DNA from: Octopus vulgaris
Lineage: Eukaryota
Assembly (NCBI GenBank): GCA_951406725.2
Contig: OX597822.1
Span: 16,182,001-16,246,000 of the forward strand
DNA: 64,000 nucleotides
Direction: 5' to 3'
A model generated the notes under the pieces. That model made no database searches. It was not told the DNA's origin and saw only the letters and a program-made list of their open reading frames with translations. The position numbers and the translations under genes were made by a program. This document shows, piece by piece, positions 431-61,143 of the stretch (position 1 is its first letter; each line of letters begins with the position of its first letter).

Positions 431-1296
431 ATAAAAAAATTTATGAAACATAATGTGCAATTATAAATAAAAAATATATTTTATTATACAGTCAGTTTTG
501 TGAAGAGAAATTATAAATTCTTTATAAGCTATAGAAGCTATACAAATGTATAAGACTGTATATAAATACATTTAATAATCTACAATATAAAAAATATAAA
601 GATTTCACAGAAATCTAATAAAATATTTCTTCAGAGAAATAAGGATAAGTCAAAATAGAATAAAATAGAATAACGATCATTTTATAAATTATGATACAAA
701 TTATATTGAAAGAATAACTAGATATGTTGTTATTATAAAAATCACCATATAAATAAAAAATATATGTATCAAATATTAATCGGAAAAAATAAAGATATCA
801 ATGGAAATGGGTTTCTAAGATATTTCTAAAATACATCAAATTCACTGCTCTAGGTAGAATAATAACAGATCCTAGGGGTTATGCCTTATACTTAGAGGAA
901 GTGCAAGTTTTAGTAATCCATTGTAAATTTATATGTTATACTATGACCGAAGTGAGTTCCAATACTCAACTGGTAAATTGAGCCGACGTGGAATTGTTCT
1001 CATGTTTCTAATAAAACTTAATTTGTTACCCAACAGTTCTGCTGAGTTATCCTTATTTTCCTTTGTTTCTGAGCTTTTCAAATTTTAAAGGTAATTGACT
1101 GGCAGCCTGTATATTGAAATTACCTGTAAACACCTGCATGCTAAACGGGCTTTACTGACCAGAGTATTTTCAGAGGCATGAAGTGATGGTGGCTGGTTTT
1201 TAAATCGTTTCTATGTTAAATAATGGAGTAAATTTTTGTTGATATAATAAAGGATTATTATATTATACAGGTAGGCAGGTAGAGAGACATGGGGGA

Positions 1297-1300
1297 TAGA

Positions 1301-1375
<75 letters not shown>

Positions 1376-1380
1376 GTAGG

Positions 1381-1461
<81 letters not shown>
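1297..1461. repeat. Compound (GATA)n/(GACA)n microsatellite
   Basis: Directly visible. Confidence 0.95.
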
Positions 1462-2539
1462 TATGAAATGAATTGACAATGAAATGGATTGATAATGACA
1501 TTAGCTGATTGCTTTCATTAGCTTGCTGTGTTCTCACTCTGTCTCGCTCCTTTTTGGTATCTAACAGCAACTGCCCCAGTGTACGATTAATCACGTGTTT
1601 AGCAGCCATATTGTCAAAGCTTAAGCGCAGATTTTCAATTAAAATCGTATTTTGTATGCTAGTATTCTGTGGTGCTTCATTGAAATGTTTCTGTTTTTTC
1701 CTTCCTGCAACCAAAGATTTCCAAATAGTGTTCATTATTCCACTTGGTCTTAGCGAAATTATTTTAATTAGGTTACATTTGATATGTTTACTTTTTGTCT
1801 TCGCACACTACGATCGTTTGAGCTGTTGTTAGAATATAAGTATGTGCATCATAAGCGTTTGTTTCTTGCGAAATATTTGCTTTTTATAGTGTACGCCTCC
1901 GTTATATTCTGTTATATTCTGGTTCTTCTTGCATGCATATTATCGCAATCAAAATTTAAGTAGAAAATAAATGGTATTCCAGCTAACTCGGTGTGTCATA
2001 AACGATATCTATAATGTTTCTGGTCTATAATTCCAGTATATTACAGATTCTAAAATAACTTTTGTGATGGGAATATCCATAGCATGTATTCAGATTAGAA
2101 GGCTACTTTTAATTTTGTCTTTGTTTTTTTTTACATATATATTTTGAAAATAACTACCAATTTCAACGTCTAAGACACGACATATTATTGTAAAATAGCA
2201 GGAAGTGAGATTTGTTATTGTCAAACTTATCATACATGACTTATTACACGGTATGATATTCCGCATATTTTTATGTAAATGGAGGTCAATTTCTCATATT
2301 AGATAGCCATATATATCAGTTTGTAAACTGACTTAATTGTATTTCTCTCGCGATTGAACAGGAGTGAGCTTTTAAGTTTAGCTTCAGCTTCGACCTGACG
2401 TTTATTACAGAGAATTTTTGTTTATGGTAATAAATCGCTGACTTTAAATTCCAGAATGTATGAAGGGTTTTATTTTTGTACGTCTGCCAACATTGAGATA
2501 TGTGCACGACAGATTTATGCAGCACATATATTCTTCTGT

Positions 2540-2629
<90 letters not shown>

Positions 2630-2654
2630 CTATATGCTAGCGTATGCACATACC

Positions 2655-2990
2655 TATGAGGTGCATTCTATAAGTTTTGAGACATTTTAGTAGTTCTAAC
2701 TGTTCTACATTATTGTAATTTGAGTATGTCGTTACTAGATATCTAATAAGCTGAACTGCCAACTTTTCTTATTTCGTGTTAAAGGACAAGACTGCAGCAG
2801 CACTTTGAACTTAACCTGGTGAACACTGTTTCTCATGGCTGACTAATTTGCAAAATATAGTCGAGACGTTTGGAAGTTCGCTACGCAGTGAAGTTTTCTG
2901 TTAAACTGGGCAAGAACACTGCAGAAACTTATGGATGATCCTGTGTAGCGTCGCATGTCTTTCAACAGGCATGAAACTGATGTGTATCCG
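2655..2990 (+). mobile_element. Decayed mariner 5' remnant
   Basis: TA-TGAGG TIR-like start. From about 2870 it translates to LEVRYAVKFSVKLGKNTAETYG, like mariner transposase N-termini (EQRYAIKFCVKLGKSATET). Confidence 0.6.
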
Positions 2991-3026
2991 ACTGAAATCC
3001 TATCTATATAGGTTTCATATTTTGGC

Positions 3027-3224
3027 ACAAAGCCTGCAATTTAGTGAGAGGAACTAACTCGATTACATCGACCCTACTGCTCAAGTTGGCACTTATTTTA
3101 TAGAGCCCAAAATTGTGTCAGATAATGTGAACCTTGGCGGAATTTGAACAGAGGACATAGAGACGAATGAAACGCCGCTAAGCATTATTGTTGCTGGTGT
3201 AACGATTCGGCCAACTCGCCGCCT
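3027..3224 (-). mobile_element. SINE family C (Meta-domain-like), diverged
   Basis: Reverse complement of the GGCGGCGAGYTGGC head, similar to copies at 23470, 54225 and 60098. Confidence 0.65.
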
Positions 3225-4089
3225 TCAATCCTGTGTATAGGAACTGATGTTTATATTTCACTGAATGGAGCCACAGTATTTGTTGATTCCACTAAAAACT
3301 GAGCAATACATTGTATACATATATGTACGTATATGTGTACGTGTGTGTGTGTGTGTGTGTGAGTATGTGTGTGTGTGTGCAATTTGTATATGGTAAATAA
3401 CTTGATACATAGAATATTTACTAAATATACGCTGCACATTTAGCATTAGTGTGTAAGCAAACTCTGAGCGGTCCCCGTAGAATGAACTGAGATTAGTTAC
3501 ACTTAGTTTTTGCTGGTTTATCGGGTTTGTCTTCCCTTCAGATTACGTGTATAACAACGCATTCAAAAGACGTTTATGAGCGTGTGCTTAATAGAGAAAC
3601 ATCTTTACTCACTATAATATTAAACACTTTCATTAAAGAAGGTAGTCTCTGCTCTATTGTCTAAAGAGCAATGTGTTGTAAGCGCATAATCTATTGACTT
3701 AGGGAATGCTAAACGTATACATTTAATATTATTTTTATTTTACCTTTGGTCAGTACTTTAGTCAATAAACATACAGTTAGTGAACGCACTGATATATAAA
3801 TGAATAACATGCAAATTAGCGTCTGTTCGTCGTGTAGCTGCGAGTTGTTTTCTACAAAACAAAATGCAGGGATTCTTCATCCGCCAAAAAAACATGTGGT
3901 CTTACTTAATTGAGATTTTCTCTGATTCTTGCTGGGGGAATTTCCATGTTGTTCAAAACTGGTGTTTTTTACTCAACGACGCTAAAGATATGGATATGAC
4001 ATATATACGTAAATAACCTTATTTACAATTAATTCACACGATGTCTCCGTACTTTTGTTAAGTACGTATATATAGATACACATATATAT

Positions 4090-5830: not shown

Positions 5831-6302
5831 AGATTTGAGGGACATTTCGTTCTTTGTTGTTATTCCTGTTTTATTGATTACGTAGATGCTCTGATGTTAG
5901 TTCATACAACAAAATAAGTTCCACCATTTCTGTAATATCCTCTGCTCCTCAGAGTAGAATGAGCTTATGTCCCTTCCACTCCAGCATTCTTCCCGCAATA
6001 AACATATATATTAAATTCAGTAAGTAACAGTAAAACAGTTTATTAACTCACAGATGTACTCATGGCTATATTGTTAAGAAGTTCGCACCGCAAACACTTG
6101 GTGTCGGATTAAGATCACAGCGTGGCACACCAGAAAGACGAAGGGTCCTCATATAACTACAAGAAACGTGCGTATCAAATACAATCAAAATATCAACATT
6201 AAACTTTATCTTTATTCTCACACATACACATATTGATATTATGGCCACTATTATCACATACCCTTTTGGGAATAAAACGGGCAGATAAAGGGTTCATTCT
6301 TT

Positions 6303-6504
6303 TACTTTTTATTTGTTTCAGTCATTTGACTGAGATCATGCTGGAGCACCGCCTTTAGTCGAAAACACCGACCCCAGGACTTATTCTTTGTAAGCCTGGT
6401 ACTTATTCTAACAGTCTCTTTTGCCGAACCCTAAGTCACGAGGACGTAAACACACCAACATCGGTTGTCAAGCGTTGGTGGTGGAGACGAACACCGAAAC
6501 ACAA

Positions 6505-6547
<43 letters not shown>

Positions 6548-6710
6548 CGACGGGCTTCTTTCAGTTTCTATCTACCAAATCCACTCACAAGGCTTTAATC
6601 GGCTCGAGGCTATAGTAGCAGACACATGCCCAAGATGCCACGCAGTGGGACTGAACCCGGAATCATGTGATTGGTATGGAAGCTACCTACCACACAGCCA
6701 CTCCTGTACC
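6303..6710 (-). mobile_element. SINE family A, full length
   Basis: Reverse complement of the 62-430 family, with both head and tail present. Confidence 0.9.
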
Positions 6711-7703
6711 TTATATTATAGAATAAAAAAATAAACAGAACTAACTCCATTTTAATTGCATTCCGAACCCCCACCCCAACTACCCAGTCCTCTAACCTCC
6801 GTCAGTGCTATAAATCTTAGGTATCCCCTACCCAATTATGACATCGCGTAGTCTTCTGCTATAATACTACTTACGGGAACTAACAAATCCATTGTACGAC
6901 TAGCAAGGCTCGCAGAATCTTCAAGGCAGTTGGTTTTTGAATGTTTTGGTTTGTGTATTTACCTAATGAAAAGGTATTTTTCTAATGATATAATGCTTCC
7001 ATTAATTAATTAAGAGTTGTTTTCTAAGTGCAGTATTTATGTATTGTTATTTGTTCATAATAATTACAGCAGTTTATCTGATTCCATTATAACAATGCTA
7101 TTATCGTTTTGTTTTTGTTGTCTTTTTAGGTCAAATATTCTTTTCCATTTTCTTCCATTTGTATTGGACTTTGGTTTCGGAAGATGGAAGCTCATTGTAT
7201 GGGAAGGGGAATATCAACGCACGAAATTTATCAAGAGTTTTCTTCCTATTTTTTGGGTTTTAGTCGTCTTTGTTTCCTTTAACGAATAGTTCTGACGTTA
7301 TCCTTAATATTCCGCAGAAATTCGAGATGTCATCTCGTACTCCATTGACTTTAAGATACTATGGTGACGGGGTAAATTTTACAAGTTTTGTGTCTTTTCT
7401 TTTGCTTCTCTTTTGCTTATAAGAATTTCAAGTAAATATAAGATTACGTTAACACATGAAAGATGGCTAATCAATCTATCCATTGAGAGATAGCGTTCTA
7501 CACACATTCTTTCTACAAAACAAAAGACAATATTTACAACAAAGCCCAGAAAATACACAGTTTTCAGCACAGCGCCATATGCAATACACGCTTGAGAATC
7601 AACTTCATTCATAGATTTAAAAATCTAAATAAATTCCCTGTGCATTTTCTCTATGCATTTTCAAATTCTTTTCCTTGTTCCTGTCCCTGTCTGTTTGTCT
7701 TTC

Positions 7704-7734
<31 letters not shown>

Positions 7735-7875
7735 TTTGCCTGCGTTGTTTGCCTTTTTAAGTGCTGTGGTTTTACTGGGATCTCCCTTTTAAGTAGAAAG
7801 AATAGCCATAACTCTTTGACAGCTATTTCTAAATTCGGTGTGTGGTGAGGCAAATCGTTGCTAAACCCTTAATTA

Positions 7876-7912
<37 letters not shown>

Positions 7913-7915
<3 letters not shown>

Positions 7916-8199
7916 CGTGGTCACCGTGACCGACCAGGCTATCAGATGTTGCTACACATCTCTGGTCACAATGGACTTCGCATTGTTTTACCCTTCATAT
8001 GACGCCACCCCGCTGGCTAAGCCAACAGAAGAAAGAGTGAGAGAAAATAGCGGTGAAAGAGTACACCAGGGATCGCCACCACCCCCTGTCGGAGCCTCGT
8101 GGAGCTTTAGGTGTTTTCGCTCAATGAACACTCACAACACCCGGTCTGGGAATCGACACCGCGAATCCGCTGCCCTAACCACTGGACCATTGCGCCTCC
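7913..8199 (-). mobile_element. tRNA-Arg-like SINE family B (OR-type), alternative 3' tail
   Basis: Head TGGAGGCGCAATGG..CAGTGGTTAGGGCAGCGGA is shared with the 24109 copy but the 3' part differs. Embedded in (TA)n. Confidence 0.8.
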
Positions 8200-8254
<55 letters not shown>

Positions 8255-8604
8255 AAATGCTCTAAAACAAATTTATAATGCATATTATATTACGCTCCAA
8301 TATGTTTCCAATTACAAGAAGAATTTAATGCGCTTTACCGAAATATGCAACCGCGCGGTGCTTGTATCTATAACATTTTCTAAGAGGTGTATGACAAATA
8401 TTGTCCTATAATATATAAAAGATAAGCATTGAAATGTATCGTAATCTTGTCAGTTATATCAAAAACATGAAAAGTATTTTATTACCTTTGCAGTTGAGTA
8501 TATAAACTGAAATAGGAAATACAGTTTATATGCTAAGGGATTTTGCGTATAATGACATATCCATACATACATACATTTATGCATACATGTAAACATATAT
8601 ACAT

Positions 8605-8675
<71 letters not shown>

Positions 8676-9092
8676 AATATACTGAAAGAGGGTGAAAAAG
8701 AAAGAGGTATATATATATATATATATAATACAAAGTAAGATAGGGGTTATGGGTGTAACCCAGTAAGGGATAGCATTTATCCAATATGCTGTTGGTAAAG
8801 TACCCAAATTCTTAATACATAAATGTCTTAATTACAATGCAATTAACTTATTTATTGTATTAAACTGGTGAAGGTAAAGAAATATTTTTACCGTAAATTT
8901 ATAATACAAATAAGAAAATGGGGAAACAAATTTAGTTTGTTCATCGACTTTCGATATTAGAATGTCGGATTATTTATTCATTCAACAAAATGAGAACCTC
9001 AATATCATACATATATATCTTATAATTCAATACATATAAGATAAGAATACAAGTTATAAAAATCAATATAATTTATTGAAATCATTAAAATC

Positions 9093-9229
9093 ACTTCTTA
9101 CAACTGTTTCAGCCTATGGCTAAAAGTAGTTATTTTTATTTTTATTGCCTATAGTTGTCAACATAATGATGTTGTAGGCATTTTAAAATATGGTGCTTAT
9201 ATATATAACAATAGGCTTCGTCAGAAGTT
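9093..9229 (-). ncRNA. Type I hammerhead ribozyme motif with long stem II
   Basis: Minus strand: actt-CTGACGA-agcctat..(about 90 nt)..ataggct-GAAA-cagttg-TA-agaagt. Stem I is imperfect. Confidence 0.65.
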
Positions 9230-9451
9230 ATAAGGAACTTTAAAAATATTAATATTAATACATTAAACATGATACACGTATTATTTAATATATATAAATA
9301 TATATAAAAAATATGAACATATATCCATATAGACATATATACATATACATATATACACATATACATTCCTAAGCAAAGTGTATGTACTGTTACAAGTGTA
9401 AAATATATAAATAAACACAATTAAACAATAGGTCCAAGTAGATATACCATA

Positions 9452-9878
9452 TGGTCTAGCATATAGAAAAATCTGAAGATTCAGAAAAATTATATTACAT
9501 ACATATAAGGAGGATGACCACTAAGTGGACATCCATTATCCTAGAAGTCGACCCCCTATGGACATACCACTAAGAAAGGAATGTTCTCAAGAAAATTTAG
9601 CAAACGTCAGAACTTAAGTGAGCAGGACAAATGAAAAGATACAAAATATACAGACGAAACCGGGTTTGTGATTAATCTGTATATTTTGTATCTTTTCATT
9701 TGTCTTGCTCACTTGCGTTCTGACGTTTGCTAAATTTTCTTGAGAACAATCCTTTCTTAGTGGTAAGACTATAGGGGGTCAACTTCTAGGATAATGGATG
9801 TCCACTTAGTGGTCATCCCTCTTATATGTATGTAATATAATTTTTCTGAATCTTCAGATATTTCTATATGCTAGACCA
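9452..9878. repeat. Inverted repeat of about 203 bp (9452-9654 / 9676-9878), probable 5'-inverted PLE pLTR remnant
   Basis: Arms are near-exact reverse complements with a 21-bp spacer. Lies 5' (on the minus strand) of the 9093-9229 hammerhead. Confidence 0.85.
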
Positions 9879-9939
9879 CTGGTTTTAAATTGATATTAAT
9901 CAAATTAATATTCAATTTTCACCCTTATTATTTTGAATT

Positions 9940-10085
<146 letters not shown>

Positions 10086-10411
10086 ATTATTTGTTTCAGT
10101 CATTTGACGGCGTCCATGCTGGAGCACCACATTTTACTCCAGTAAATCGACCCCAGGACATATTCCTTGTAAGCCTAGTACTTATTCTAACGCTATCTTT
10201 TTGCCGAACCGCTAAGTTATGGGGACGTAAACACACCACCATCGATTCTCAAGCGACGGGCTTCTTTCATTTTCCGTCTATTAAATCCACTCATAAGGCT
10301 TTGGTCAGCCCGAGGCTATAGTAGAAGACACTTTCCCAAGGTGCCACTCAGTGGGACTGAGCCAGGAACCATGTGGTTGGTAAGCAAGCTACTTACCACA
10401 CACCCACTACT
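10086..10411 (-). mobile_element. SINE family A (internal microsatellite deleted)
   Basis: Matches the 6303-6710 copy. Confidence 0.85.
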
Positions 10412-10807
10412 AAGCATATATATATAGTCACACATATGCCACATACGCATATAAACTGGGAATTTGTGCTTGTGTATGCAAATATAAGCGTGTGCGATAG
10501 AAAATATTTTGCTTTCTCAAGGAAGAAACAATATGATGTGAGTTATTTCTATGCTTGCTGTGTGAGCTACGTGTCTCTGTATGAAGCCTATTATGTTTGG
10601 CTTCTCATTTCTAACGTATCAGAGAGAATTTATCACGTGGAGGTGCATACAAATTCATTTATATTACAATCACACAAATACGTACAAATACAAACGCTCA
10701 CACACATAATTATGTATATATATATTTATGGGAATTCCTTTTCACTTTTTAATATACGCATGTAAATATGTGTGTGTGTGTGTTTATGCATACATATAAA
10801 TGTGTGA

Positions 10808-17828: not shown

Positions 17829-19521
17829 TTCGCTTTTATTGATTTCTATCGTTTTATTTTTTCTTTATAAATATTAATGGTTCTGATTATTAAAAATATA
17901 ATTTTCTCCGTGGTCTTGTTTGTTAGGTCAGTAAATATGTCAGTTAGCGGTGATTGCAGATACCATTTCTATTGTTCTTGTCGATGTTGTTGTTGGTTTT
18001 TGGAAGCTAACGTTGATAGCAGCAATCAACTTTCGTAGTGTGCATTTCATGTCTACATTGTTTTCATAACTGACTTCACAGCAATGAAAACCAACCAATA
18101 ATCAGCTCTAATTCTTCATACTCCATAACATTGTTTTGTTTACTTTCGGTGTGTGCGTGTTTTTATTTTAATAATATTTTCTCTTTCTCTGTTCTGCCCA
18201 TACACAAACGGCTTCTGCATGGCGCCACAGTACTGGCCGAAACCATCGAAGTCAGTGTTGAATTATTCACTGAACTCCAACCCAACTTTGAGCAAGTGGG
18301 ATTACTTTATATTGTTATTGTTTGTGTTGTTGTTGTTTTGTGTGTGTCTGTGGTGTTTATGTGTGTGTATGTGGTTTTTATTTGTGTGTACGGGCGTTGG
18401 TTTGTGTGTGTCTAAGTGAAAATTTGGCTCCGGATGCAGGAGAAGAAGGAAAACTCAGGTTTCATGGCGCTACAAGCATAACATCATTAATTTTTTTTTT
18501 AAATCATAAAGTAATGTAGAATAAGAATGTAATAATGTTAAAATAATACCATAATGAAAGATAAATATTAATGGGAATTTTATCCATTATCGACAAAGAA
18601 AAATGAGATTTGAAAGAGTTATTAGATAAATTAGAAAGAGACGGTAAATATTCATTTAATGCATTCTCAAAATATTTGTGTTACCAAAGCGTTGGTTTGG
18701 AATAAACAGTACAGTTCTATACAAAATTTATTGTGGTATTTAGTGACATTCCTTTATGTTCAGAGTTCGTATTCCACCAGGATTGAAGTTGCCTTTCAAT
18801 ATTTCATAACCGATAATATAATTACTAATCAAGTAAATACAGAAGTTAATATAATAATTAAGGACACTTTCTCATAGTGTGTTGCCTTGTACCTATGAGA
18901 CAAATCCCAATATATCTGAATTATAAATCAAAGATGAGAAAGCTAGACTGAAGGACTAGGCCGAGCCTTGGTTAGGCTTCCTGGTGTTTTAGCTTCAAAT
19001 CTCACAAATGCTAAATAGGATTTCAGTTATTCTGAGTCGATAAAATAAATAACTAATTGAAAATTAGTAGCGTAGATTGAATCTGCAGTATTCCTCAAAC
19101 GTGTTGGCTTTGTTTCCTCTTTATGAATTACTACAACGGCACTGGTTAAGGTAAACCTGGCTGAAATTAAACTTGCACAAATCGAAACTTTCATCTGGTT
19201 ACAATACAGAATCGATTTTTATTCACTGCACTCAAACCGTTTATAGCATACTGACAGCCCCATTGCTTCGAAAAGTTTGATTATTGCATTTAAGTTATGT
19301 TAATGTTTTTACTGAATATTCGCGTGAAGCGAATGGTACCCCAAAAAACTAAATTGTGAAGTTCTACCCACCTTCTCTACGGAATCTTTTCATTAATGCC
19401 ATACAAATCTTATTTCTACTAACATAGAGAACCACTGCATTGAATCACATGATAATATAATTAACTCCGAATCTACATTCTTAAATATATAAAAAAAGAA
19501 TTAAATAACTATGCTATAATA

Positions 19522-19791
19522 CAATTGCAGCGTGGAAGGTGTTTATAAGCCATTTAAGAAACCGTTAGATTCACTTCAAAATTTTAATTTAATTTGCCAA
19601 AATATTTTCGTCGCTTTGTGACCGCGACCTGTTCACTGATAAAATTCCGTGCTGCCATATTCCAGTGAACAGGTCGCGGTCTCAAAGCGTGTTTCTGAAA
19701 TGGCTTATAAACATCTTCCACGTTGCAATTGTTTTCATTCCAGCACACGATCTCAGATCAGGTCACTTGCTATGCAAGTACACCTCCGCAA
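19522..19791. mobile_element. Small fold-back hammerhead-bearing element (probable non-autonomous PLE derivative), copy 1
   Basis: Nested inverted arms, a unique 3' tail and a 12-bp TSD TATGCTATAATA (19510-19521 / 19792-19803). Same family as 24077-24674. Confidence 0.8.
19596..19640 (-). ncRNA. Minimal type I hammerhead motif, G3:C8 variant
   Basis: atca-GTGAACA-g-gtcgc-ggtcacaaa-gcgac-GAAA-atat-TT-tggc. Confidence 0.6.
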
Positions 19792-19800
19792 TATGCTATA

Positions 19801-19848
<48 letters not shown>

Positions 19849-23696: not shown

Positions 23697-24108
23697 CGAA
23701 AGGTGTTACATTACGAAAAAGAAAAAAAATTGCAGTTGTTTCAACGAATTCTATTAAAGTTCTTTAATACAAACCTAATAATCTCTGTATCTATGAAGGA
23801 TCGAGAGAGACGCTTCGTTATATTTAGTTCCATCTTATGTTACAAGTTCGAATCCAACCATAACGGCTATTGTTCGTCATTCTGAGTTCGATAAAATTAT
23901 TATACTGGACATTTATTGTAAATAACATTTAAATTTAGATATTTCTTGACTATTAACCAAGGTTGACAGAAAAGGGTATAAGTCAACCCTGCATTTTTGT
24001 TTCAGCTCCATTTTGTTTGTTTCTTTTTTTATTTAAAAAATGTGACGCGTATTTTACCGAAAAATATTGTTTTTTACAATTGCAGCGTGGAAGGTGTTTG
24101 TAAGCCAT

Positions 24109-24459
24109 GTGGAGGCGCAATGGCCCAGTGGTTAGGGCAGCGGACTCGCGGTCATAGGATCGCGGTTTCGATTCCCAGACCGGGCGTTGTGAGTGTTTAT
24201 TGAGCGAAAACACCTAAAAGCTCCACGAGGCTCCGGTAGGGGATGGTGGTAATCCCTGCTGTACTCTTTCACCACAACTTTCTCTCGCTCTTACTTCCTG
24301 TTTCTGTTGTATCTGTATTTCAAGGGGCCGGCCTTGTCACTCTCTGTGTCACGCTGAATATCCCCGAGATTACACGTTAATTTCACGAGCAGGCTGTTCC
24401 GTTGATTCGGATCAACCGGAACCCTCATCGTCATATCCGACGGAGTGCTTCCTCCTCTC
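24109..24459 (+). mobile_element. tRNA-Arg-like SINE family B, full length, with TSD
   Basis: A box TGGCCCAGTGG and B box GGTTTCGATTCC. 10-bp TSD TGTAAGCCAT (24099-24108 / 24460-24469). Confidence 0.9.
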
Positions 24460-24486
24460 TGTAAGCCATTCAAGAAACACACAAAA

Positions 24487-24531
24487 GTCAGTGAACACGT
24501 CGCCGTCGTAAAGCGACGAAAATATTTTGAC
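24487..24531 (+). ncRNA. Minimal type I hammerhead motif, G3:C8 variant
   Basis: gtca-GTGAACA-c-gtcgc-cgtcgtaaa-gcgac-GAAA-atat-TT-tgac. Stems I and II pair perfectly and stem III is the palindrome AATATT. Confidence 0.7.
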
Positions 24532-24699
24532 AAATTAAAACTTAAATGTTGAAGTGAATCGAACGGCTTTTGTGTGTTTCTTAAATGGCTTACAAACACC
24601 TTCCACGCTGCAATTGTTTTCATTTCAGCACACGATCTCAGATCAAATCACTTGCTATGCAGGTACATCTCCGTAATATTGTTTTTTATCTTATCTTTT

Positions 24700-25079
24700 A
24701 CCCGCTTCAGTCGTTGCACCGCTGGAGCACCGCCATCAAGAATTTTTAGCCAAATGAATCGATCGCACTAATTTCTTTTAAAACCTGGCACATTTTCTAT
24801 CGGTCACTTCTGCCGAACCTCTAGTTTTACAGGATGTAAACAACCAACACTGGTTGTCAAGCAATGGAGGGGGTGGGGACAAATACAAACAGAATCGAAG
24901 ACACACACATACAGGTAGAGAGAGACGACAGGCTTCTTTCATTTTCCGTCCACCAAATTTACTCACAAAGCTTTAATCGACCCGAGGCTATACAAGGAGA
25001 TATTTGACTAAAATACCATTCAGTGGCACTGAACCCAGAGCCATGGGATTGGGAAACAAACTCAGCCACATCTGTCCCT
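24700..25079 (-). mobile_element. SINE family A, diverged
   Basis: Similar to the 6303-6710 copy. Confidence 0.75.
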
Positions 25080-29475: not shown

Positions 29476-34659
<5,184 letters not shown>

Positions 34660-34750
34660 GGGAATGTTACTTCCGAGTACACATGAAAAAGACATTCAAA
34701 TTAGATGTACTAAAATGAACATCACTCAATGTTTAATTCGTATATATATA

Positions 34751-35041
34751 AAGTAGTTTTAGAGACAGAACCACCTTCAACTCAATCAACACTGAAAGAT
34801 TTTATACCCGACCAGTCCATAACATGTTAAAAATCAAATCTTATACTAACTATATCTATTCTGAATCCCGTGTTTTCAGTTTATAAGACTACACGTGTTT
34901 CATGAAAGTACGTCATGAAACACGTGTAGTCTTATAAACTGAAAACACGGGATTCAGAATAGATATAGTTAGTATAAGATTTGATTTTTAACATTTTATG
35001 GACTGGTCGGGTATAAAACCTTTCAGTGTTGATTGAGTTGA

Positions 35042-35042
<1 letters not shown>
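34751..35042 (-). mobile_element. Fold-back PLE pLTR remnant: 130-bp palindrome (34776-34905 / 34913-35042) plus 25-bp tail, in (TA)n
   Basis: Near-perfect inverted repeat with a 7-nt spacer. Each arm carries the hammerhead 3' half GAAA-cacgtg-TA-gtct. TA arrays on both sides. Confidence 0.8.
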
Positions 35043-35097
<55 letters not shown>

Positions 35098-40800: not shown

Positions 40801-40886
<86 letters not shown>

Positions 40887-41044
40887 GTGTGTGTGATTGT
40901 GTATAGAAGAATATATTAATAAAAGGAATTCCAACCTTGTCTGATTTTCACGTTTTATTTACAATCTTATAATGATATATTATAAGATAATATATTATAA
41001 TAGAATAAAATAAAATAGTAGAATGTTAAATGTTCAATCTGATT

Positions 41045-41087
41045 GAACTAGTACTTTCATGCATTAAATTCTGCAATCTTCGGGTTC
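41045..41087 (-). ncRNA. Minimal type I hammerhead motif (U4C core) in 3' pLTR
   Basis: gaac-CCGAAGA-t-tgca-gaatttaa-tgca-t-GAAA-gtac-TA-gttc. Confidence 0.7.
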
Positions 41088-41589
41088 GTGTAGTAGTGGT
41101 GACAGTCATGCTTCACAATTTTTGGCTGTAGCAAGATGATTGATTCTGTGCTTTAAATACAGCTGGGTAGGCTCCAGAGTGCTAGGTTTTGCAAACTGTA
41201 TTCTGACCAATCAGTGTGTAGTATCACTCAATTACTTAAGCTGATTGATTGGTTGGTTGAGCTGATTGGTTTAGGCGTCACGCTTTGTTGGACATGTCAA
41301 GAGTCCTGTATCTTGACCCTGGCCGAAGCAGCAATTGTTGGGTTATTTTTAGAAATGTTGTAAATAGCCTTTGTCAGAGATTTTTATATTTTTATATTTC
41401 AATTCCCATCATCATCATTGTCAGCACCTTATTTATTGTTGCTAGTAGTGATGGTGGTGGCAATAGAACTTTTAACCCTGAATAAGATAATTTTCCTGCT
41501 ATCTTCATCTTGATCACCTTTAGTATTGTTGTTGTTGTTAGTGGTCATGGTCGTAGCAGTAGAAGTAGTACCTCTCAGTATTATTATTA

Positions 41590-44400
41590 TTATTGCTTAT
41601 TTAGCTCGGGTTCGAATTTATCAATAAAATTCTTTTCTCTGATTCTCCTCTCGATTTCATTTGGGCTGTGTAATTTGTAGAACGGAAATATTATATACAT
41701 TTTCCGGCCACATGTTGCTAGGTGGTTACTCAAAGGTATCTGACGGACCTCTGGGTCTCTAATCTGTTGTCGGTGTACACGTGAGCGTTCTAATAGTGCG
41801 TTTCCCGTCTGACCTACATATATTTCTTCACAATTTTGGCATTTGATGCAGTAAATTAAATTTCTGCTTTTGCAGTTCATATTCGCGTTTGTGAATATTT
41901 TCCCGGTTTTTGTGTTTATATATTGGCCGGTATGTATGAATTGGCATGTGCCACATCGGCTATCATTGCATTTAGATACAGTGAATGTTTGGTCTTTGTT
42001 GTTAAGGTCAAAGTTTGCCTTTGTTAGTAATTTTTTCAAGTTTTTAGGCTGTCTTTTACTAAGCACCATAGCTCGATCCGTGATTATGTCTTTTAATTCA
42101 TTACTTTGGGCAATGATTGGTAGGTTTGTTTTGGCAATGTTGAAGATATTCTGGTGACATGGGTTGTGTGTCACTATGAATGGTATGACTTGATCTTGTT
42201 TTCCTTTTCCTTGGGTTGTCCTAAGTTGTTGTATGGGTATTTTTATAGCCCGCTGTATGCCATTTTCTATAAGTAGAGATGGGTATTTTTGTTTGAGCAA
42301 AAATTCTTTTAGTTCTATTAGGCGTTTGTTCCTGATATTTGCATCTTCTACAATGGTACAAATTCTTCTGGCTAGGCAGTATGGGATGTTACGTTTTGTA
42401 TGTGGTGGATGGCACGACTTAAAATTTAGGTATTGATGTGTGTCTGTGTGTTTATAGTATATATCTGTGGTGATGGTGGTGTCTTTTTTAATTACCATTA
42501 TATCTAGGAATGGTAATTTGGTACTACTCATCTCCTTTGTAAATTGGAGAGATGGGTGTAGGTTGTTCAGGAGGATATTGAACTCTTCCAGAGTATTTAG
42601 AGATTCTGTCCAGATTATGAAGCAGTCGGCAAGGTATCTCTTCCATGCCTTTTCAATATACTTTCTAAATCCAGTGCCATAGTTTACCTCCCCCTTGGTA
42701 GAGTTGTTCTTCTAAGTATCCCATTACAGAGTTGGCGTAAACGGGAGCAAACCTCGTTCCCATCGCCGTGCCTCTAATTTGGATGTAATTCTTTCCATTG
42801 AAGAAGAATGTGTTGTTTTCTAGAATAAGTTTGACTGTGTCTAATATAAATGGCACTGTGAATCTGCTGGGAATCACTTCTCTATGTTTTTCTAACCAGT
42901 ATTTAATCGCCTTTATTCCTAAATCGTGTGGAATATTGGTGTAGAGGCTTACCACATCAAAACTTAGTAAAACTGAATTTGTTTCTGTTGTTTTGGGAAG
43001 ATGGGACAGGAAGTCGATGTCATCCCTGATGAAACTGGGTATGTAAGTACATAGTGGTTTCAAAACAATGTCAATAAAATTGCTTAGACGGTGGGTAGGG
43101 CATGCTGGATCAGCTATAATACATCTCTTTTGGATGTAGTAATTTTATGTACTCACTTTCTTGTTCTTTTACTGCCTGTTGAATATCTTTTGATTTGTGT
43201 ATTTTTGGTAAGCCGTAGAAGTTGCTGGGTTTTGGTTCGAAATTGGTGATGTAGTCTCTTTCATTATCCGTAAGTGAGTTGTAGTGTGTTGAGATCAGGT
43301 TGTTGATCTTTTTCATGATGTGGTGGTCTATATTTGCGGGTATTTCACAATAGAAGGTTGTATCCTTCAGTTGGTCCTCAACCAAATCCTTATAGTATTC
43401 GGTATCCATAATAACAATTGCACCACCTTTATCTGCTTGTTTAATTATTATGGTTTGATCGTTTTATATACGTTTACATGCAGACATCTCTGATTTGCTA
43501 ATGTTTGGCCTAACATTGGTATTGCGTCTAAGGGGAAATTTAGACAGGATATCAATGTATTGATCAAGGTAGTTATTTCTTCCTTTTGGTGGGGTGAAAT
43601 TTGATTTATTCCTTACTAGAGATTCATCAATCTCATTACTTTTGTTAGCGAAGAATTCTACAAGTCGTAATTTTCGACACAATTTTTGGATATCCTCCTT
43701 TAATTCTTGGTGGTTGGCTGTTGGTGTAGGTGTGAATTTCAGTCCCTTTGACAGAAGTTGGATTTCATCATTGTCAAGATCTCTTTTTGATAAATTAATT
43801 ATTTTAGGATCTATACGTTCAGTTGTTTGGGGTATGTTTCCTCTTCAATTTTTTCTTTCTCCGGTGTTTGTTGTCCTGACGTAAAAAAATGGATTTTTTT
43901 CTGTTTAAGATTTATATTCAGTTGATGTTTGCTTGATGTTTTGGCTGTGGTATTTTACTTGGTTTCGTTATGTTTTCTGTCTTGTTTTTGGTTTTAATGT
44001 ATGCTACTTTTCAATTTCTTGTTAGCATTGTTTTTAACCACCTGGAGAAATGATCTGGGTTTACTTCTAGATCTAGATCGGTTTTTTGTCCACTTTCTTG
44101 TGGGTAATCTCTGTTGAGGTCTTGAAAATGATCTGTTATTTCTACTGCTAATGGTCTGTTCAAAAGAATATCTATTTTGTTTGTGCTTTTTGTTCATGTT
44201 GTGTGCATTAGGGTGTTTGCATACAAAAAGGGAAGAGTTCTTACCGTAGTTCGTCTTCGATTCGTGGTGAAACGGGTGTTCATGTTGCCACGTGTTCTGG
44301 TGTATGTTGCGTTGGTGAGGTTGTCCACTTTTAATACTATTTCTCGGAGTTCTGGTGTCTTTACCGTAATTTATAGCATATTTATCGAGAAATAATTGTT
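41590..44400 (-). pseudogene. Frameshifted PLE reverse transcriptase / GIY-YIG endonuclease ORF
   Basis: Pieces ADKGGAIV, FYGLPKIHK, SFDVVSLYTNIPH, QIRGTAMGTRFAP, WKRYLADCF (YxDD changed to YLAD) and LPFLD. Cys-rich linker CNDSRCGTC, then NLIYCIKC..IYVGQTG..ERSRVH..E..PELN. The C-terminal 313 aa (41590-42531) is open. Confidence 0.92.
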
Positions 44401-44544
44401 TCCTCTGTCAAAAATATAAAAATCTCTGACAAAGGCTATTTACAACATTTCTAACAATAACCCAACAATTGCTGCTACGACCAGGGTCAAGATACAGGAC
44501 TCTTGACATGTCCAACAAAGCGTGACGCCTAAACCATTCAGCTC

Positions 44545-44650
44545 AACCAACCAATCAGCTTAAGTAATTGAGTGATACTACACACTGATTGGTCAGAATA
44601 CAGTTTGCAAAACCTAGTACTCTGGAGCCTACCCAGCTGTATTTAAAGCG
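44545..44650 (+). promoter_or_regulatory. Putative pLTR promoter (CCAAT boxes and TATTTAAA) upstream of the hammerhead
   Basis: CCAATCAG at about 44551, reverse CTGATTGG at about 44585, TATTTAAA at about 44640. Mirrored in the left pLTR. Function is inferred only. Confidence 0.3.
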
Positions 44651-44710
44651 CAGAATCAATCATCTTGCTACAGTCAAAAATTGTGAAGCATGACTGTCAC
44701 CACTACTACA

Positions 44711-44755
44711 TGAACCCGAAGATTGCAGAATTTAATGCATGAAAGTACTAGTTCA
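44711..44755 (+). ncRNA. Minimal type I hammerhead motif (U4C core) in inverted 5' pLTR
   Basis: tgaac-CCGAAGA-ttgcagaatttaatgcat-GAAA-gtac-TA-gttca. Confidence 0.7.
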
Positions 44756-44912
44756 ATCAGATTGAACATTTAACATTCTACTATTTTATTTTATTCTATT
44801 ATAATATATTATCTTATAATATATCATTATAAGATTGTAAATAAAACGTGAAAATCAGACAAGGTTGGAATTCCTTTTATTAATATATTATTCTATACAC
44901 AATCACACACAC

Positions 44913-44962
<50 letters not shown>

Positions 44963-44964
<2 letters not shown>

Positions 44965-45241: not shown

Positions 45242-45288
<47 letters not shown>

Positions 45289-45463
45289 GTTTAAATATTT
45301 GTTGTGCAAGATTGTTTATGTGAAGTCGTGTGTTGAAACAGATATTGTTATATTTCGGAATGGTCATATTGCCAGTTTAGCCAATAAAAACACACGCACT
45401 ATATATTTGGTGTTATTTTGCTTCAGTGATATTTATTTTTTACATTAATCTTAATCTTATTTC

Positions 45464-45508
45464 GGCCAAAGTTCTTTCGTCACACTCCTGTGACCGCATC
45501 AGTGGTCC
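45464..45508 (-). ncRNA. Hammerhead-like motif (A9C core) in 3' pLTR
   Basis: ggacca-CTGATGC-g-gtcac-aggagt-gtgac-GAAA-gaac-TT-tggcc. Confidence 0.55.
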
Positions 45509-46008
45509 TTTGTTTTCTTCTCACTTACTTGTGTCTCTCCTTACTAACCGTCAGCCATTTTATATTTCTATTGTATGTCTTCATTTGCGCATGTTTATAT
45601 CTCTATGTGCGTCTATGTTTATTTAGTGTGTGTGTGGGGGGGATGCCTGTAATATTTGTATCTTCTGGTTATATACATTCTTGTAATTTGTATTTTGTTT
45701 TTGTTGTTGTTGCTTTTGTTCTAATTTTGTTCATGTGTTTACATCCACCCATTATTATCATTACATATGCTTGTATGTATGTATAACAACAATATTAGTA
45801 ATAATAATAATAAATCTAATCGGAAAAAAAAAAAAAAAAAAAAGAATATACATATACATATATATATATACATACACATACATATACATATATATATATA
45901 TACATATACACACACATATATACACATATACATATACATATATATAGATATTCATTTCTATTTCTTTAATTACCTGTGTATTTATTATGTTTGCAGGATC
46001 CACTATTG

Positions 46009-46812
46009 TCATATGTTGTGGTGTGCGCTATTGCTCCATTCTAGTTTTCTATTCAGGCTAGGTTTATTTTCTATTATATGTGTAGCTTCTGTAATTTGTC
46101 TAATTGTTGCATCTGTTCTATGTGTGGACAATATCTTAATCTCTATGTTATTGATTGATCCCCCGTGTTCTTGTTCGGCGTGTTGGTACAGAATCGATGA
46201 GCTTTTACCTTCCTTGAGTTGTCTCCAATGTTCATTCACCCGCTCACCAATGCTTCTTGCAGTTTCCCCTACGTATGTTACTGTCTTGTTACTGCATCGT
46301 CCCTCTATACATCTTATACTATAGACCACATTTCTGGCTTTACAGTTCGTTTGTGGGCTAAATCTACATACAGTGCAATAGTTATCCGTACAGAGAGTTC
46401 TACTAAAAGGATAGCTTCTACCAATTATAGATCTGATAGGGTTGCCTGGCTTTTCAACAACCTTAATTCTTAGTTTAAGTTTATCTAGGGTCCTTCTAAA
46501 GCGGTACGCTAGTTCACCTCCAGGGGTGGTGTCAACGAACATGACACTCTGGTATTTATGGCTATCATACCAAGAGTTGGCCTTCCCTATTTTCTTTTTT
46601 GTCCTTTCTATAGTGTTCCATGACTTGTTCCTATAGAGTGGGCAAATCCCATTCCTATCATTACATAATATATTATCAAATTTCTTCATGGCTCCTTTGT
46701 ATACTCTGATCCTTTCTTTATGGCTGTAACCTGAGAACTGCATGCGGTGAATGAAGTACTGTATGTGTCTTTTTAATTCTGTAGGCTCGCACATGCGTGA
46801 CACATTTCTCAT
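46009..46812 (-). CDS. PLE thumb/linker plus GIY-YIG endonuclease (5'-truncated ORF, possibly Hydra-like clade)
   Basis: SGYS, PLYR, VMFVDTTPGGELA, CTDNYCTVC, NVVYSIRC..TYVGETARSIGERVNEH, RQITEA, LNRK. RT core is absent. The clade assignment is from memory. Confidence 0.85.
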   Translation of the reverse strand: MRNVSRMCEPTELKRHIQYFIHRMQFSGYSHKERIRVYKGAMKKFDNILCNDRNGICPLYRNKSWNTIERTKKKIGKANSWYDSHKYQSVMFVDTTPGGELAYRFRRTLDKLKLRIKVVEKPGNPIRSIIGRSYPFSRTLCTDNYCTVCRFSPQTNCKARNVVYSIRCIEGRCSNKTVTYVGETARSIGERVNEHWRQLKEGKSSSILYQHAEQEHGGSINNIEIKILSTHRTDATIRQITEATHIIENKPSLNRKLEWSNSAHHNI

Positions 46813-47163
46813 TATTCTGAAGTTATATCAGAATGAGATTTTTTTTTTTTCCATTAGATTTATTATTATTATTACTAATATTGTTGTTATACATACATAC
46901 AAGCATATGTAATGATAATAATGGGTGGATGTAAACACATGAACAAAATTAGAACAAAAGCAACAACAACAAAAACAAAATACAAATTACAAGAATGTAT
47001 ATAACCAGAAGATACAAATATTACAGGCATCCCCCCACACACACACTAAATAAACATAGACGCACATAGAGATATAAACATGCGCAAATGAAGACATACA
47101 ATAGAAATATAAAATGGCTGACGGTTAGTAAGGAGAGACACAAGTAAGTGAGAAGAAAACAAA

Positions 47164-47208
47164 GGACCACTGATGCGGTCACAGGAGTGTGACGAAAGAA
47201 CTTTGGCC
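47164..47208 (+). ncRNA. Hammerhead-like motif (A9C core) in inverted 5' pLTR
   Basis: Identical to the 45464-45508 copy. Confidence 0.55.
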
Positions 47209-47322
47209 GAAATAAGATTAAGATTAATGTAAAAAATAAATATCACTGAAGCAAAATAACACCAAATATATAGTGCGTGTGTTTTTATTGGCTAAACTGG
47301 CAATATGACCATTCCGAAATAT

Positions 47323-47403
<81 letters not shown>

Positions 47404-55874: not shown

Positions 55875-56146
55875 TGTGTGTCGTTGTATGTATACACACA
55901 CATACATCACACATGCATAAGTGCATACGTATATGAATTCCTCCTTAGCGACGAAATCACTATTAGTTGAATTTAGTAATGTGTATACCATACTTAGACC
56001 ATATCATACTATTGAAATCCTTCTAAGTTCACCTCGGGAAGCAGCTCTAGATTACGGGTAGTGCTAAAAAATTCAGAAATACATCAGCAGCAGGCGAAAA
56101 TTGACTTGCTTGGTATGTATGCTTGAATTATTATGATATTATTATA

Positions 56147-56525
56147 GGCGTAGGAATGGCTGTGTGGTAAGTAGCTTGCTTACCAACCACATGGTTCCGG
56201 CATCAGTCCCACTGTGGGCCACCTTGGGCAACTTTCTTCTACTATAGCCTCGGGCCGACCAAAGCCCTGTGAGTGGATTTGGTAGACGGAAACTGAAAGA
56301 AGCTCGTCGTATATATGTATGTGTGTGTATGTGTTTGTGTGTCTGTGTTTGTCCCCCCAACATCGCTTGACAACCGAAGCTGGTGTGTTTACGTCCCCGC
56401 AACTTAGCAGTTCGGCAAAAGAGACCGATAGAATAAGTACTAGGCTTACAAAGAATAAGTCCTGAGGTCGATTTGGCATTGCTCCAGTATGGCCACAGTC
56501 ATATGACTGAAAGAAGTAAAAGAGT
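56147..56525 (+). mobile_element. SINE family A, full length
   Basis: Matches the 62-430 copy. Confidence 0.9.
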
Positions 56526-60304: not shown

Positions 60305-60905
60305 TTCGCACCGAAATCTTTCGTCGCTTCTTTATAAGTTTGTTCGATTCGTTCAGATGACTGGTTTGTGAGAAAATAAGATATTTGTGAGACTGGTGAA
60401 TTACAATTGTTACACGAGTTTTGTTGTTTGGTTTATTAGGGAGACTCATTATTTATAGAATCAGCTTCTTTGTATTGCAAACTTCTACACATTATGGTTT
60501 CAAAATTTTGGAAGGGAGGAGGCTAGTCGTCTACATTAACCCCCAGTGCACAACTGGTATTATTTTATTGACTCGAAAGGATGAAAGGCAAAGTCGAACT
60601 CAGCAGAATTTTAACTGAGAACGTAAAAACGGACGAAATGACGCAGATAACATAGAACAATGTAAAAGTACAGAGTACTGTGCTGATTATAGTTCGAGGA
60701 TTAATCGTGCTGTGGGAAGGTCGTGGTGGAAGTTCTAATATGGTAGATAGCACATTACAGAACTGTGATAAATGATATCTTACAAGGGATTTATTTTTGT
60801 TTAAATCGCATTTAAAATAATTGAACAACTTTGAATATGACTTATAATTCCATGTCATAAATTGTTTACCATGGCAACATAACAGGAATATATTTATTAA
60901 ACATA

Positions 60906-61078
60906 GGCACAGGAGTGGCTGGGTGGGAAGTAGCTTGCTTACAAACAACATGGTTCCGGGTTCAGTCCCACTGCGTGGCAACTTGGGAAAGTGTCTTCTG
61001 CTATAGCATCGGGCCGACCAAAACCTTGTGAGTGGATTTGGTAGCGGGAAACTGAAAGAAGCCCGTCGAATATATATG

Positions 61079-61143
<65 letters not shown>

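What the first reader, a model, noticed from the sequence alone, without database searches (positions are those of the whole stretch)
19510..19803. Tiny TSD-flanked fold-back hammerhead retroelement family (MITE-like appearance, PLE-like anatomy)
Seen: two independent insertions (19522-19791, and 24077-24674 once the nested SINE is removed), each 250-270 bp, with 12-bp and 14-bp TSDs. Both start at the same nucleotide with an inverted arm (CAATTGCAGCGTGGAAGG), turn around at different internal points near the hammerhead, and end in a tail of about 65 nt that the inverted arm lacks. No ORF. Established: Penelope elements show inverted partial pLTRs with a 3' tail and carry minimal hammerheads. 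Inference: this is either a non-autonomous retrozyme-like family or the repeated product of extreme 5' truncation, integrating as a hairpin in a single event.
Basis: partly seen in the sequence, partly recalled or inferred. Interest (0 to 1): 0.75.

Follow-up and report, generated by a model that had tools for sequence, protein, structure and literature searches.

The report
Hairpin stubs of a Penelope retrotransposon
These two small hairpin-shaped insertions are the front ends of a protein-coding Penelope-type jumping gene in an octopus-like genome, likely left as dead stubs when the enzyme started copying from both sides of one DNA cut, so they are a new example of a known pattern, with an unusual swapped base pair in their predicted ribozyme.

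Summary
In detail: two fold-back insertions with exact target-site duplications, a shared outer end, a one-sided 60-nt tail and a minimal hammerhead motif. 'No ORF' is wrong. Each tailed arm ends in 30 open codons (7 of 9 differences between copies at third positions, p about 0.007). These codons are the N-terminus of Octopus proteins that run on into a Penelope-type reverse transcriptase. A sister GIY-YIG-bearing element in the same window ends at the same two codon positions. So the unit is the pLTR plus tail of an autonomous Penelope-like element, not a MITE and probably not a retrozyme. In four sequencing runs the family is high-copy (roughly a thousand copies or more), with three modal ends, including a fixed 5' end, and variable turn-round points. 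The likely mechanism is two cDNAs primed from both strands of a 12-nt staggered cut and joined head to head (inferred). The architecture is already described. What is new is the family, its natural G3-C8 core, and clean data for testing the mechanism.

The parts
19510..19521 (+). Copy 1 left TSD (12 bp)
   Evidence: exact match to 19792-19803
19522..19660 (-). Copy 1 inverted, tail-less arm: nearly the whole pLTR from the family's modal 5' end to codon 11 of the ORF; has a private 10-nt deletion near 19562
   Evidence: loose ends pile at 19521 and 19655 in 4 of 4 runs
19593..19643 (-). Minimal type-I hammerhead motif in the inverted arm: core G3-U4-G5-A6-A7-C8-A9 at 19636-19630, one extra base, 5-bp stem II, palindromic 6-nt stem III, U17; one private mismatch in stem I (19640)
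   Evidence: sequence; 98% of depth at 19640 carries the pairing base
19663..19791 (+). Copy 1 tailed arm: starts in hammerhead stem I; a 59-nt deletion after 19689 removes GAAA and stem III
19700..19791 (+). First 30 codons of the Penelope-type ORF (copy 1)
   Evidence: 28 of 31 identical to P0001
19732..19791 (+). 60-nt tail (codons 11-31), absent from the inverted arm; likely lies between the two reverse-transcription start sites
   Evidence: analogy to PMC11167929
19792..19803 (+). Copy 1 right TSD, next to a (TA)n run
24065..24076 (+). Copy 2 left TSD (12 bp; 14 bp, from 24063, if the shared AA is counted)
24077..24487 (-). Copy 2 inverted, tail-less arm, 50 nt in two pieces (24077-24108 and 24470-24487) split by the SINE; 1 difference in 50 from the tailed arm
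24109..24469 (+). Later SINE insertion with a tRNA-like head (label from inspection; ARAGORN calls no tRNA) and a 10-bp TSD; a second copy lies at 8024-8203
24487..24531 (+). Complete minimal hammerhead motif, G3-C8 core at 24491-24497
24585..24676 (+). First 30 codons of the ORF (copy 2); tail is 24617-24676
24677..24688 (+). Copy 2 right TSD
45287..47330 (-). Sister-family element (PLE-B), used as in-window comparison: same fold-back plan with long arms, GIY-YIG 3' part of the ORF (46009-46827), homologous ORF start (ATG 45367 on minus, 47305 on plus), same two end positions, C3-G8 hammerhead core at 47170
   Evidence: (GIY-YIG E 6e-4, below Pfam cut-off)

Best explanation
The two insertions are the 5' end (hammerhead-bearing pLTR, first 30 codons and tail) of a protein-coding Penelope-like retrotransposon, likely laid down as dead stubs when its RT/GIY-YIG protein cut both strands about 12 nt apart and primed one cDNA from each end. 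SHOWN: the TSDs; the two outer ends, both of which are element 3' ends; the ORF start; its identity with Octopus proteins that continue into Penelope-type RT motifs; the same two end positions in a sister element; three modal ends and variable junctions in the family. INFERRED: (i) one cDNA starts at the tail end and the other 60 nt upstream at the tail base, matching the two internal start sites measured for an anole element; (ii) each runs back along the front of the element's RNA and stops at or before a fixed 5' end about 16 nt upstream of hammerhead stem I, probably the RNA start; (iii) the two cDNAs are joined head to head by end joining with little or no homology, and filling the stagger gives the TSD; (iv) the stubs probably cannot move again, because in the anole element activity needed ORF sequence beyond the tail, and a fold-back transcript would bury the ribozyme in a long hairpin. 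Element identity about 0.93; the two-ended, stub-from-autonomous-RNA mechanism about 0.6.
For: ORF: 7 of 9 differences between the copies fall at third codon positions and only 2 residues change; permutation p 0.007. The peptide is 94% identical to the N-terminus of P0001, E 7.6e-10, and matches P0002, E 9.3e-10. P0001 residues 20-225 match P0005 at 78%, E 1.6e-66. Its cluster mate P0006 aligns to the RT of the window's long element at 40836-44963 in two segments, E 1.5e-5 each. P0006's nearest Atlas clusters (feature score 0.94-0.97, plus structure rows) carry DUF8422, some with RVT_1, HTH_animal and GIY-YIG. Sister element: 10 of 25 identical residues, shuffle p 5e-5; its tail-less and tailed ends lie within 0-3 nt of ours. 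Family: 6,605-10,720 contigs laid per run. Loose ends with low agreement (0.44-0.52, against 0.68-0.79 at a known deletion) pile at 19521 (93-171 contigs), at 19655 (81-137) and at 19786-88 (20 and 48, in 2 of 4 runs). 7 of the 15 joints shown link left arm to right arm or tail, each at a different pair of points. The unmirrored spacer belongs to opposite arms in the two copies. All four presumed primer ends finish in TA, and 45 contigs in one run abut (TA)n. Literature: cleavage and extension of both strands, two start sites that define the tail, and a need for the first 172 nt of the ORF (PMC11167929); defined pLTRs of about 200 bp holding the first 12 codons, 22 with tail, with inverted copy and 9-10-bp TSD (PMC3846280).
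Against: No full-length member with RT and GIY-YIG on one stretch was seen. The link is a chain of overlapping gene models, and Pfam finds no RT domain in P0005 or P0006. A search for longer relatives of P0001 found none among 995 candidates. The third-position test rests on two copies, and several of the changes are private to copy 1, so chance or post-insertion change may contribute. A fixed 5' end is also what a non-autonomous family would show. The family data are short contigs with truncated tables (24 of 997 loose-end rows, 15 of 124 joints, 40 of 56 variant rows shown), so the share of fold-backs and the TSD lengths are unknown. Many 5' ends abut unrelated DNA, so many copies are probably not fold-backs. 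No empty site appeared among the joints shown. The biochemistry comes from a different clade with a 30-40-nt tail.
Confidence: 0.62

Rival explanations
1. A pLTR-sized non-autonomous element (retrozyme- or MRC1-like), derived from the same Penelope family, is transcribed by itself and mobilised in trans; the 30 codons are a relic.
For: Fixed 5' end, and depth about equal over hammerhead and tail in 4 of 4 runs, with no shared sequence beyond 19655. One head-to-tail joint (19644 back to 19533) has about 35 and 10 times single-copy depth in two runs. Retrozymes are reported to derive from pLTRs (bioRxiv 10.64898/2026.07.22.740005), and pLTRs can act in trans.
Against: Synonymous bias in the 30 codons; longer copies continue the frame; no tandem array in the window; retrozymes carry canonical hammerheads in tandem, whereas minimal ones mark Penelope-like elements.
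Confidence: 0.18
2. Same origin, but the inverted arm is made by snap-back self-priming of one cDNA (or of an antisense template), and the hairpin is then resolved by the endonuclease at the tail base.
For: Proposed for head-to-head Penelope palindromes (PMC3846280). Copy 2 fits: its arms differ at 1 of 50 bases and the spacer is on the tailed arm. A near-perfect palindrome of another family lies at 34773-35045.
Against: In copy 1 the tail-less arm holds about 23 nt upstream of where the tailed arm starts, and 59 nt that the tailed arm lacks, so it cannot be a copy of that arm as it stands. Junction homology in copy 2 is about 1 base.
Confidence: 0.17
3. A true MITE moved by a DDE transposase.
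For: Long inverted arms; both TSDs can be read as 12 bp; high copy number.
Against: One end carries an unmirrored 60-nt tail; arm lengths and junctions vary; the sequence is a retroelement ORF start with a hammerhead motif.
Confidence: 0.02

Closest known systems
Endonuclease-positive Penelope-like element insertion units with inverted pLTR, one-sided tail and TSD (Pen2a_Av in PMC3846280; figure 2 legend of PMC8557442; passages read)
   Same: Defined pLTR that includes the first codons of the ORF; tail inside the ORF at one end only; head-to-head inverted copy; TSD of about 10 bp; AT-rich or (TA)n targets.
   Different: No element body between the arms (239-270 bp in all); tail 60 nt rather than 30-40; TSD 12 bp; a modal 5' end across many copies.
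PAc (Poseidon of Anolis carolinensis), PMC11167929 (parts 1-2 of 4 read)
   Same: Hammerhead next to the ORF start; two ends inside the ORF that bound the tail; both target strands used.
   Different: Here the hammerhead core lies 94 nt upstream of the ATG rather than at it; the start sites are inferred, not measured; natural core is G3-C8, a pair that paper made only as a partial-rescue double mutant; the clade probably differs.
Minimal hammerheads of metazoan Penelope-like elements, PMC4209133 (parts 1-2 of 4 read)
   Same: Extra base between 9 and 10.1; G10.1-C11.1; palindromic short stem III; pairs on opposite strands 100-700 bp apart were already noted in Schistosoma and put down to truncated elements.
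   Different: That paper and PMC3088659 (section read) report only U3-A8 as natural covariation of the 3-8 pair; this family has G3-C8, with U at position 17.
Non-LTR retrozymes (PMC7229834, passages; bioRxiv 10.64898/2026.07.22.740005, parts 1 and 3 of 5)
   Same: Small size, type-I hammerhead, long TSDs, kinship with pLTRs.
   Different: Not a tandem array here, minimal rather than canonical ribozyme, carries a coding start, inverted arrangement; no circular RNA shown.
L1 twin priming (recalled, not read here)
   Same: Both target strands prime cDNA, giving an inverted segment inside a TSD.
   Different: Here both primings are at fixed neighbouring sites, so the arms overlap in sequence and mirror each other.

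Membership tests
EN+ Penelope-like element (pLTR/tail fragment) | pLTR that carries a minimal hammerhead motif | tested here: met
   variant core, not detected by Rfam
EN+ Penelope-like element (pLTR/tail fragment) | pLTR and tail overlap the start of the ORF | tested here: met
EN+ Penelope-like element (pLTR/tail fragment) | Tail at one end only; inverted 5'-truncated copy; TSD | tested here: met
   family ends
EN+ Penelope-like element (pLTR/tail fragment) | ORF encodes a Penelope-type reverse transcriptase | tested here: met
   indirect: chain P0001 to P0005/P0006, tblastn to the window's long-element RT, Atlas; Pfam negative on these partial models
EN+ Penelope-like element (pLTR/tail fragment) | C-terminal GIY-YIG endonuclease in this same family | tested here: inconclusive
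   seen only in the sister element (E 6e-4, below cut-off) and in Atlas neighbours
EN+ Penelope-like element (pLTR/tail fragment) | Partial head-to-tail tandems | tested here: inconclusive
   2 of 15 joints shown go back on the same strand, plus one in table 5c; none in the window
Named clade (Nematis, Hydra, Neptune, Poseidon) | RT phylogeny and diagnostic motifs | not tested
   no tree built; P0006 shows DKS for DKG and an RW motif, and PMC8557442 gives DKT and RWK for Hydra; a Nematis-like placement is only recalled
Non-LTR retrozyme | Tandem repeats with a complete canonical hammerhead in each unit | tested here: not met
   both window copies are inverted pairs with at most one whole minimal motif
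Non-LTR retrozyme | Non-coding unit | tested here: not met
Non-LTR retrozyme | Unit-length linear and circular RNA | not tested
MITE | Inverted repeats at both termini, uniform structure | tested here: not met
   unmirrored 60-nt tail; arms 139 and 50 nt; variable joints
MITE | Fixed-length TSD | tested here: inconclusive
   2 of 2 can be read as 12 bp; too few
Minimal type-I hammerhead ribozyme | Core bases, stems I and II, palindromic stem III, NUH site | tested here: met
   In one search no shown variant row falls in the core (16 rows hidden); the stem I variant at 19597 (38-60%) keeps the pair; four rows of positions are in loop II; one CpG change in stem II at 6-7%
Minimal type-I hammerhead ribozyme | Self-cleavage | not testable with these tools
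   predicted weak: G3-C8 only partly rescues; the predicted dimer did not form through the palindrome

The most novel reading that the evidence does not exclude
This family is a natural read-out of the Penelope cycle. Thousands of 'strong-stop' stubs are made from the front of the coding RNA and end at its start; both strands of a 12-nt staggered cut prime independent cDNAs at two start sites that are conserved to the codon between sister families; and the family keeps an active hammerhead with a naturally inverted G3-C8 core pair, not found in print in my searches.
Probability: 0.4. Interest if true: 0.55.

Novelty: new member of a known kind. Interest (0 to 1): 0.33.

Why it matters
How Penelope-like elements make inverted repeats and tails is still open: self-priming has been proposed, and two-strand extension has been seen only in vitro. 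A high-copy family of tiny, TSD-bounded stubs lets a genome-wide count decide between the two. It also warns that short Penelope stubs can be mis-filed as MITEs or retrozymes, that standard hammerhead searches miss G3-C8 cores, and that the ORF start contaminates host gene models (P0001 is fused to a methyltransferase part). It is not a new class of element.

Tried and rejected
No whole genome was available, so copies could not be aligned directly. Exact-pattern scans found nothing useful: 0 hits in metagenome and prokaryote contigs; 1 viral hit inside unrelated coding-like DNA; and 119 metagenome loci for a 17-mer, none matching the element beyond 21-36 bases. Rfam gave no hammerhead. ARAGORN gave no tRNA, and T-runs inside the unit argue against a Pol III SINE. 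The two long elements in the window are not the direct partner: no nucleotide match, and the peptide does not align to an open frame at the 5' end of the 40836-44963 element. Pairwise P0005 comparisons with that element were weak (E 0.045-0.09). The Atlas gave no useful hit for P0001 1-225 (best 0.80). P0003 and P0004 are repetitive and were set aside as chance. Folding the ORF-start region showed no unusual structure (z -0.8). A possible short terminal inverted repeat of the monomer was considered; 5-base matches are not beyond chance, and it could not be tested. One arm comparison was out of register (22 differences) and is not used. Look-ups of earlier findings by sequence, place and a first word set returned nothing. 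Lunse et al. 2017 on Penelope hammerhead variants is not held, so it may already report G3-C8. Supplements of PMC4209133, PMC8557442 and PMC3088659 were not read and may list this variant or family.

Full report
OBSERVATION. Both insertions are real. Copy 1 (19522-19791) lies between exact 12-bp repeats; copy 2 (from 24077) lies between exact 14-bp repeats and carries a later SINE with its own 10-bp TSD. A repeat of 12 bp or more at such boundaries appeared about 4 times in 100,000 random positions. Copy 1 folds into a long hairpin, z = -14. These are the only two copies in the window. Corrections: the tail is 60 nt; copy 2 is 239 bp without the SINE; the inverted arms are 139 and 50 nt; the tailed arms start within about 2 nt of each other; and the tailed arm of copy 1 has a 59-nt deletion. 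Because the element's last two bases also begin the 14-bp repeat, both TSDs can be read as 12 bp.

HAMMERHEAD. Rfam lists no hammerhead here. By inspection the sense strand has stem I, a core G3-U4-G5-A6-A7-C8-A9, one extra base, a 5-bp stem II opening with G-C, GAA, a 6-nt palindrome and U17. A descriptor written after seeing this, allowing four 3-8 pairs, gave 1 hit in the window and 0 in 60 simulated windows. It missed copy 1 (a stem I mismatch in one arm, the deletion in the other) and the motifs of the two long elements. G3 and C8 are present in all three arms that cover the core. In the four runs laid, none of the 40 variant rows shown (of 56) falls in the core. The common variants lie in loop II or keep stem I paired: 19597 switches G-U to A-U in 38-60% of depth, and 19640 has the pairing base in about 98%. 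The extra base and palindromic stem III are the described marks of Penelope minimal hammerheads, and opposite-strand pairs 100-700 bp apart were already noted (PMC4209133). Natural covariation reported there and in PMC3088659 is U3-A8. C3G/G8C is described as a partial laboratory rescue. Two searches for a natural G3-C8 found none, but the most relevant paper is not held. Activity is untested and predicted to be weak.

THE MISSED ORF. An ATG at 19700 and 24585 opens 30 codons to the tail end in both copies. Of 9 differences, 7 are at third positions and only 2 residues change (binomial p 0.008, permutation p 0.007). The peptide is the N-terminus of P0001, named by its source as an Octopus sinensis protein (94%, E 7.6e-10), and of P0002 from O. 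bimaculoides. P0001 continues in frame for about 225 residues before a methyltransferase part. That continuation matches O. vulgaris P0005 at 78%, and its cluster mate P0006 runs into motifs typical of Penelope RT (motif labels recalled). P0006 aligns to the RT of the long element at 40836-44963 (E 1.5e-5 twice), and its Atlas neighbours carry DUF8422, some with RVT_1, HTH_animal and GIY-YIG. Pfam itself finds no RT in these partial models, and no longer relative turned up. These gene models are probably translations of other copies: they show that longer copies exist, not that the protein is made. The window is therefore probably from an octopus (inference).

IN-WINDOW COMPARISON. The element at 45287-47330 has the same plan with long arms and a GIY-YIG segment. 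Its ORF start is homologous (10 of 25 identical, shuffle p 5e-5, best non-self hit in the window), and its tail-less and tailed ends fall within 0-3 nt of ours, with (TA)n blurring the exact base. Its hammerhead has C3-G8 and a compensated pair in stem II, with C at position 9. So the two ends are conserved Penelope features, and the tiny insertions are the short extreme of the same process.

FAMILY. Four of 24 listed runs, under four organism labels, were laid on 19380-19820. Each gave 6,605-10,720 contigs. Summed depth is no copy number; dividing peak by flank depth, and by up to 31 for overlap, brackets the count at about 900-3,300 at the low end and 27,000-101,000 at the high end. Loose ends with low agreement pile at 19521 (93-171 contigs per run), at 19655 (81-137) and at 19786-88 (20 and 48, in two runs); ends caused by the known deletion agree at 0.68-0.79, so the former behave as true termini (24 of 997 rows shown). 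The family thus has a modal 5' end about 16 nt upstream of stem I, and many copies abut unrelated DNA there, so many are probably not fold-backs. Seven of 15 joints shown (of 124) link left arm to right arm or tail at different points, each in one contig per run. Six are opposite-strand joints that probably reflect arm ambiguity, and two go back, as in partial tandems. The left junction of copy 1 is spanned without differences in 3 of 4 runs; no empty site was among the joints shown.

MECHANISM. Both outer ends are element 3' ends, so each arm reads as a first-strand cDNA on its own strand. In the anole element PAc the protein cuts and extends both strands, starts at two sites inside the ORF that bound the tail, and needs ORF sequence beyond them (PMC11167929). 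Applied here (inference): a 12-nt staggered cut after TA (all four presumed primer ends) primes one cDNA at the tail end and one at the tail base. Each runs towards the RNA 5' end, and the two are joined head to head. This accounts for fixed outer ends, the one-sided tail, variable junctions and the TSD. It also explains why the unmirrored spacer belongs to the tail-less arm in copy 1 and the tailed arm in copy 2, which simple snap-back from a tail-primed cDNA (PMC3846280) does not. The fixed 5' end is best read as the RNA start, making these strong-stop products of the coding RNA; this is untested, and a non-autonomous pLTR-sized master would give the same end.

COMPARISON AND NOVELTY. Defined pLTRs of about 200 bp holding the first codons, a one-sided tail, an inverted copy and a 9-10-bp TSD are described for rotifer elements and generally. 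Penelope-like elements cover 6.83% of the O. vulgaris genome in 190 families (supplement row of PMC13282606; passages of the main text have no mention of hammerheads). Searches for solo pLTR or strong-stop and for twin priming with Penelope gave no paper stating the two-ended or strong-stop model; I saw only listings for all but PMC3846280. Earlier notes of this scan describe similar stubs, and 5' ends at stem I, in shark- and fish-type genomes; they are unchecked leads, but they suggest the pattern is common. Verdict: a new family of a known kind of insertion, interest 0.33. The G3-C8 core and the testable mechanism are the parts worth following.

Papers seen: PMC11167929 parts 1-2 of 4; PMC4209133 parts 1-2 of 4; bioRxiv 2026.07.22.740005 parts 1 and 3 of 5; PMC3846280 passages and Discussion; PMC3088659 passages and one section; passages of PMC8557442, PMC7229834, PMC6765202, PMC8969392, PMC2377424, PMC3884650, PMC8495972, PMC13282606 (plus supplement rows) and bioRxiv 2022.06.16.496473. 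Lunse et al. 2017: not seen.

Noticed in passing
window 19663 and 24488: Both tailed arms begin inside hammerhead stem I, and one other-copy joint in two runs does too (19585 to 19663): possibly a second preferred 5' stop besides the modal end. It is not the predicted cleavage site. Unexplained.
   Followed up: partly
window 40836-44963: Long, frameshifted Penelope-like element (RT and GIY-YIG) with 558-bp inverted pLTRs, a hammerhead-like motif at 44716 and (TA)n on both sides; a different family.
   Followed up: partly
window 34745-35045: Near-perfect palindrome of another family that turns round inside a hammerhead-like stem II, with about 25 unmirrored bases at the left end and TA runs on both sides; probably another Penelope stub.
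   Followed up: partly
window 9452-9878: Fold-back with 203-nt arms and a 21-nt spacer; no TSD and no clear hammerhead found.
   Followed up: partly
window 29816-33766 (minus): Uninterrupted 1316-codon frame of a non-LTR retrotransposon (RVT_1 E 3e-24); looks young.
   Followed up: no
window 19533-19644 as laid: A head-to-tail joint at about 35 and 10 times single-copy depth in two runs: possibly a small tandem array of the hammerhead region, which would be retrozyme-like.
   Followed up: no
P0001 and P0002: P0001 is a chimeric gene model (element N-terminus plus methyltransferase part). P0002 lacks residues 25-30, a gap that ends exactly at the tail end.
   Followed up: no
window 24773-25062: Just right of copy 2 lies a diverged copy of an abundant interspersed repeat also found near 50-430, 6300-6720, 10090-10420, 56140-56520 and 60900-61170.
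   Followed up: no
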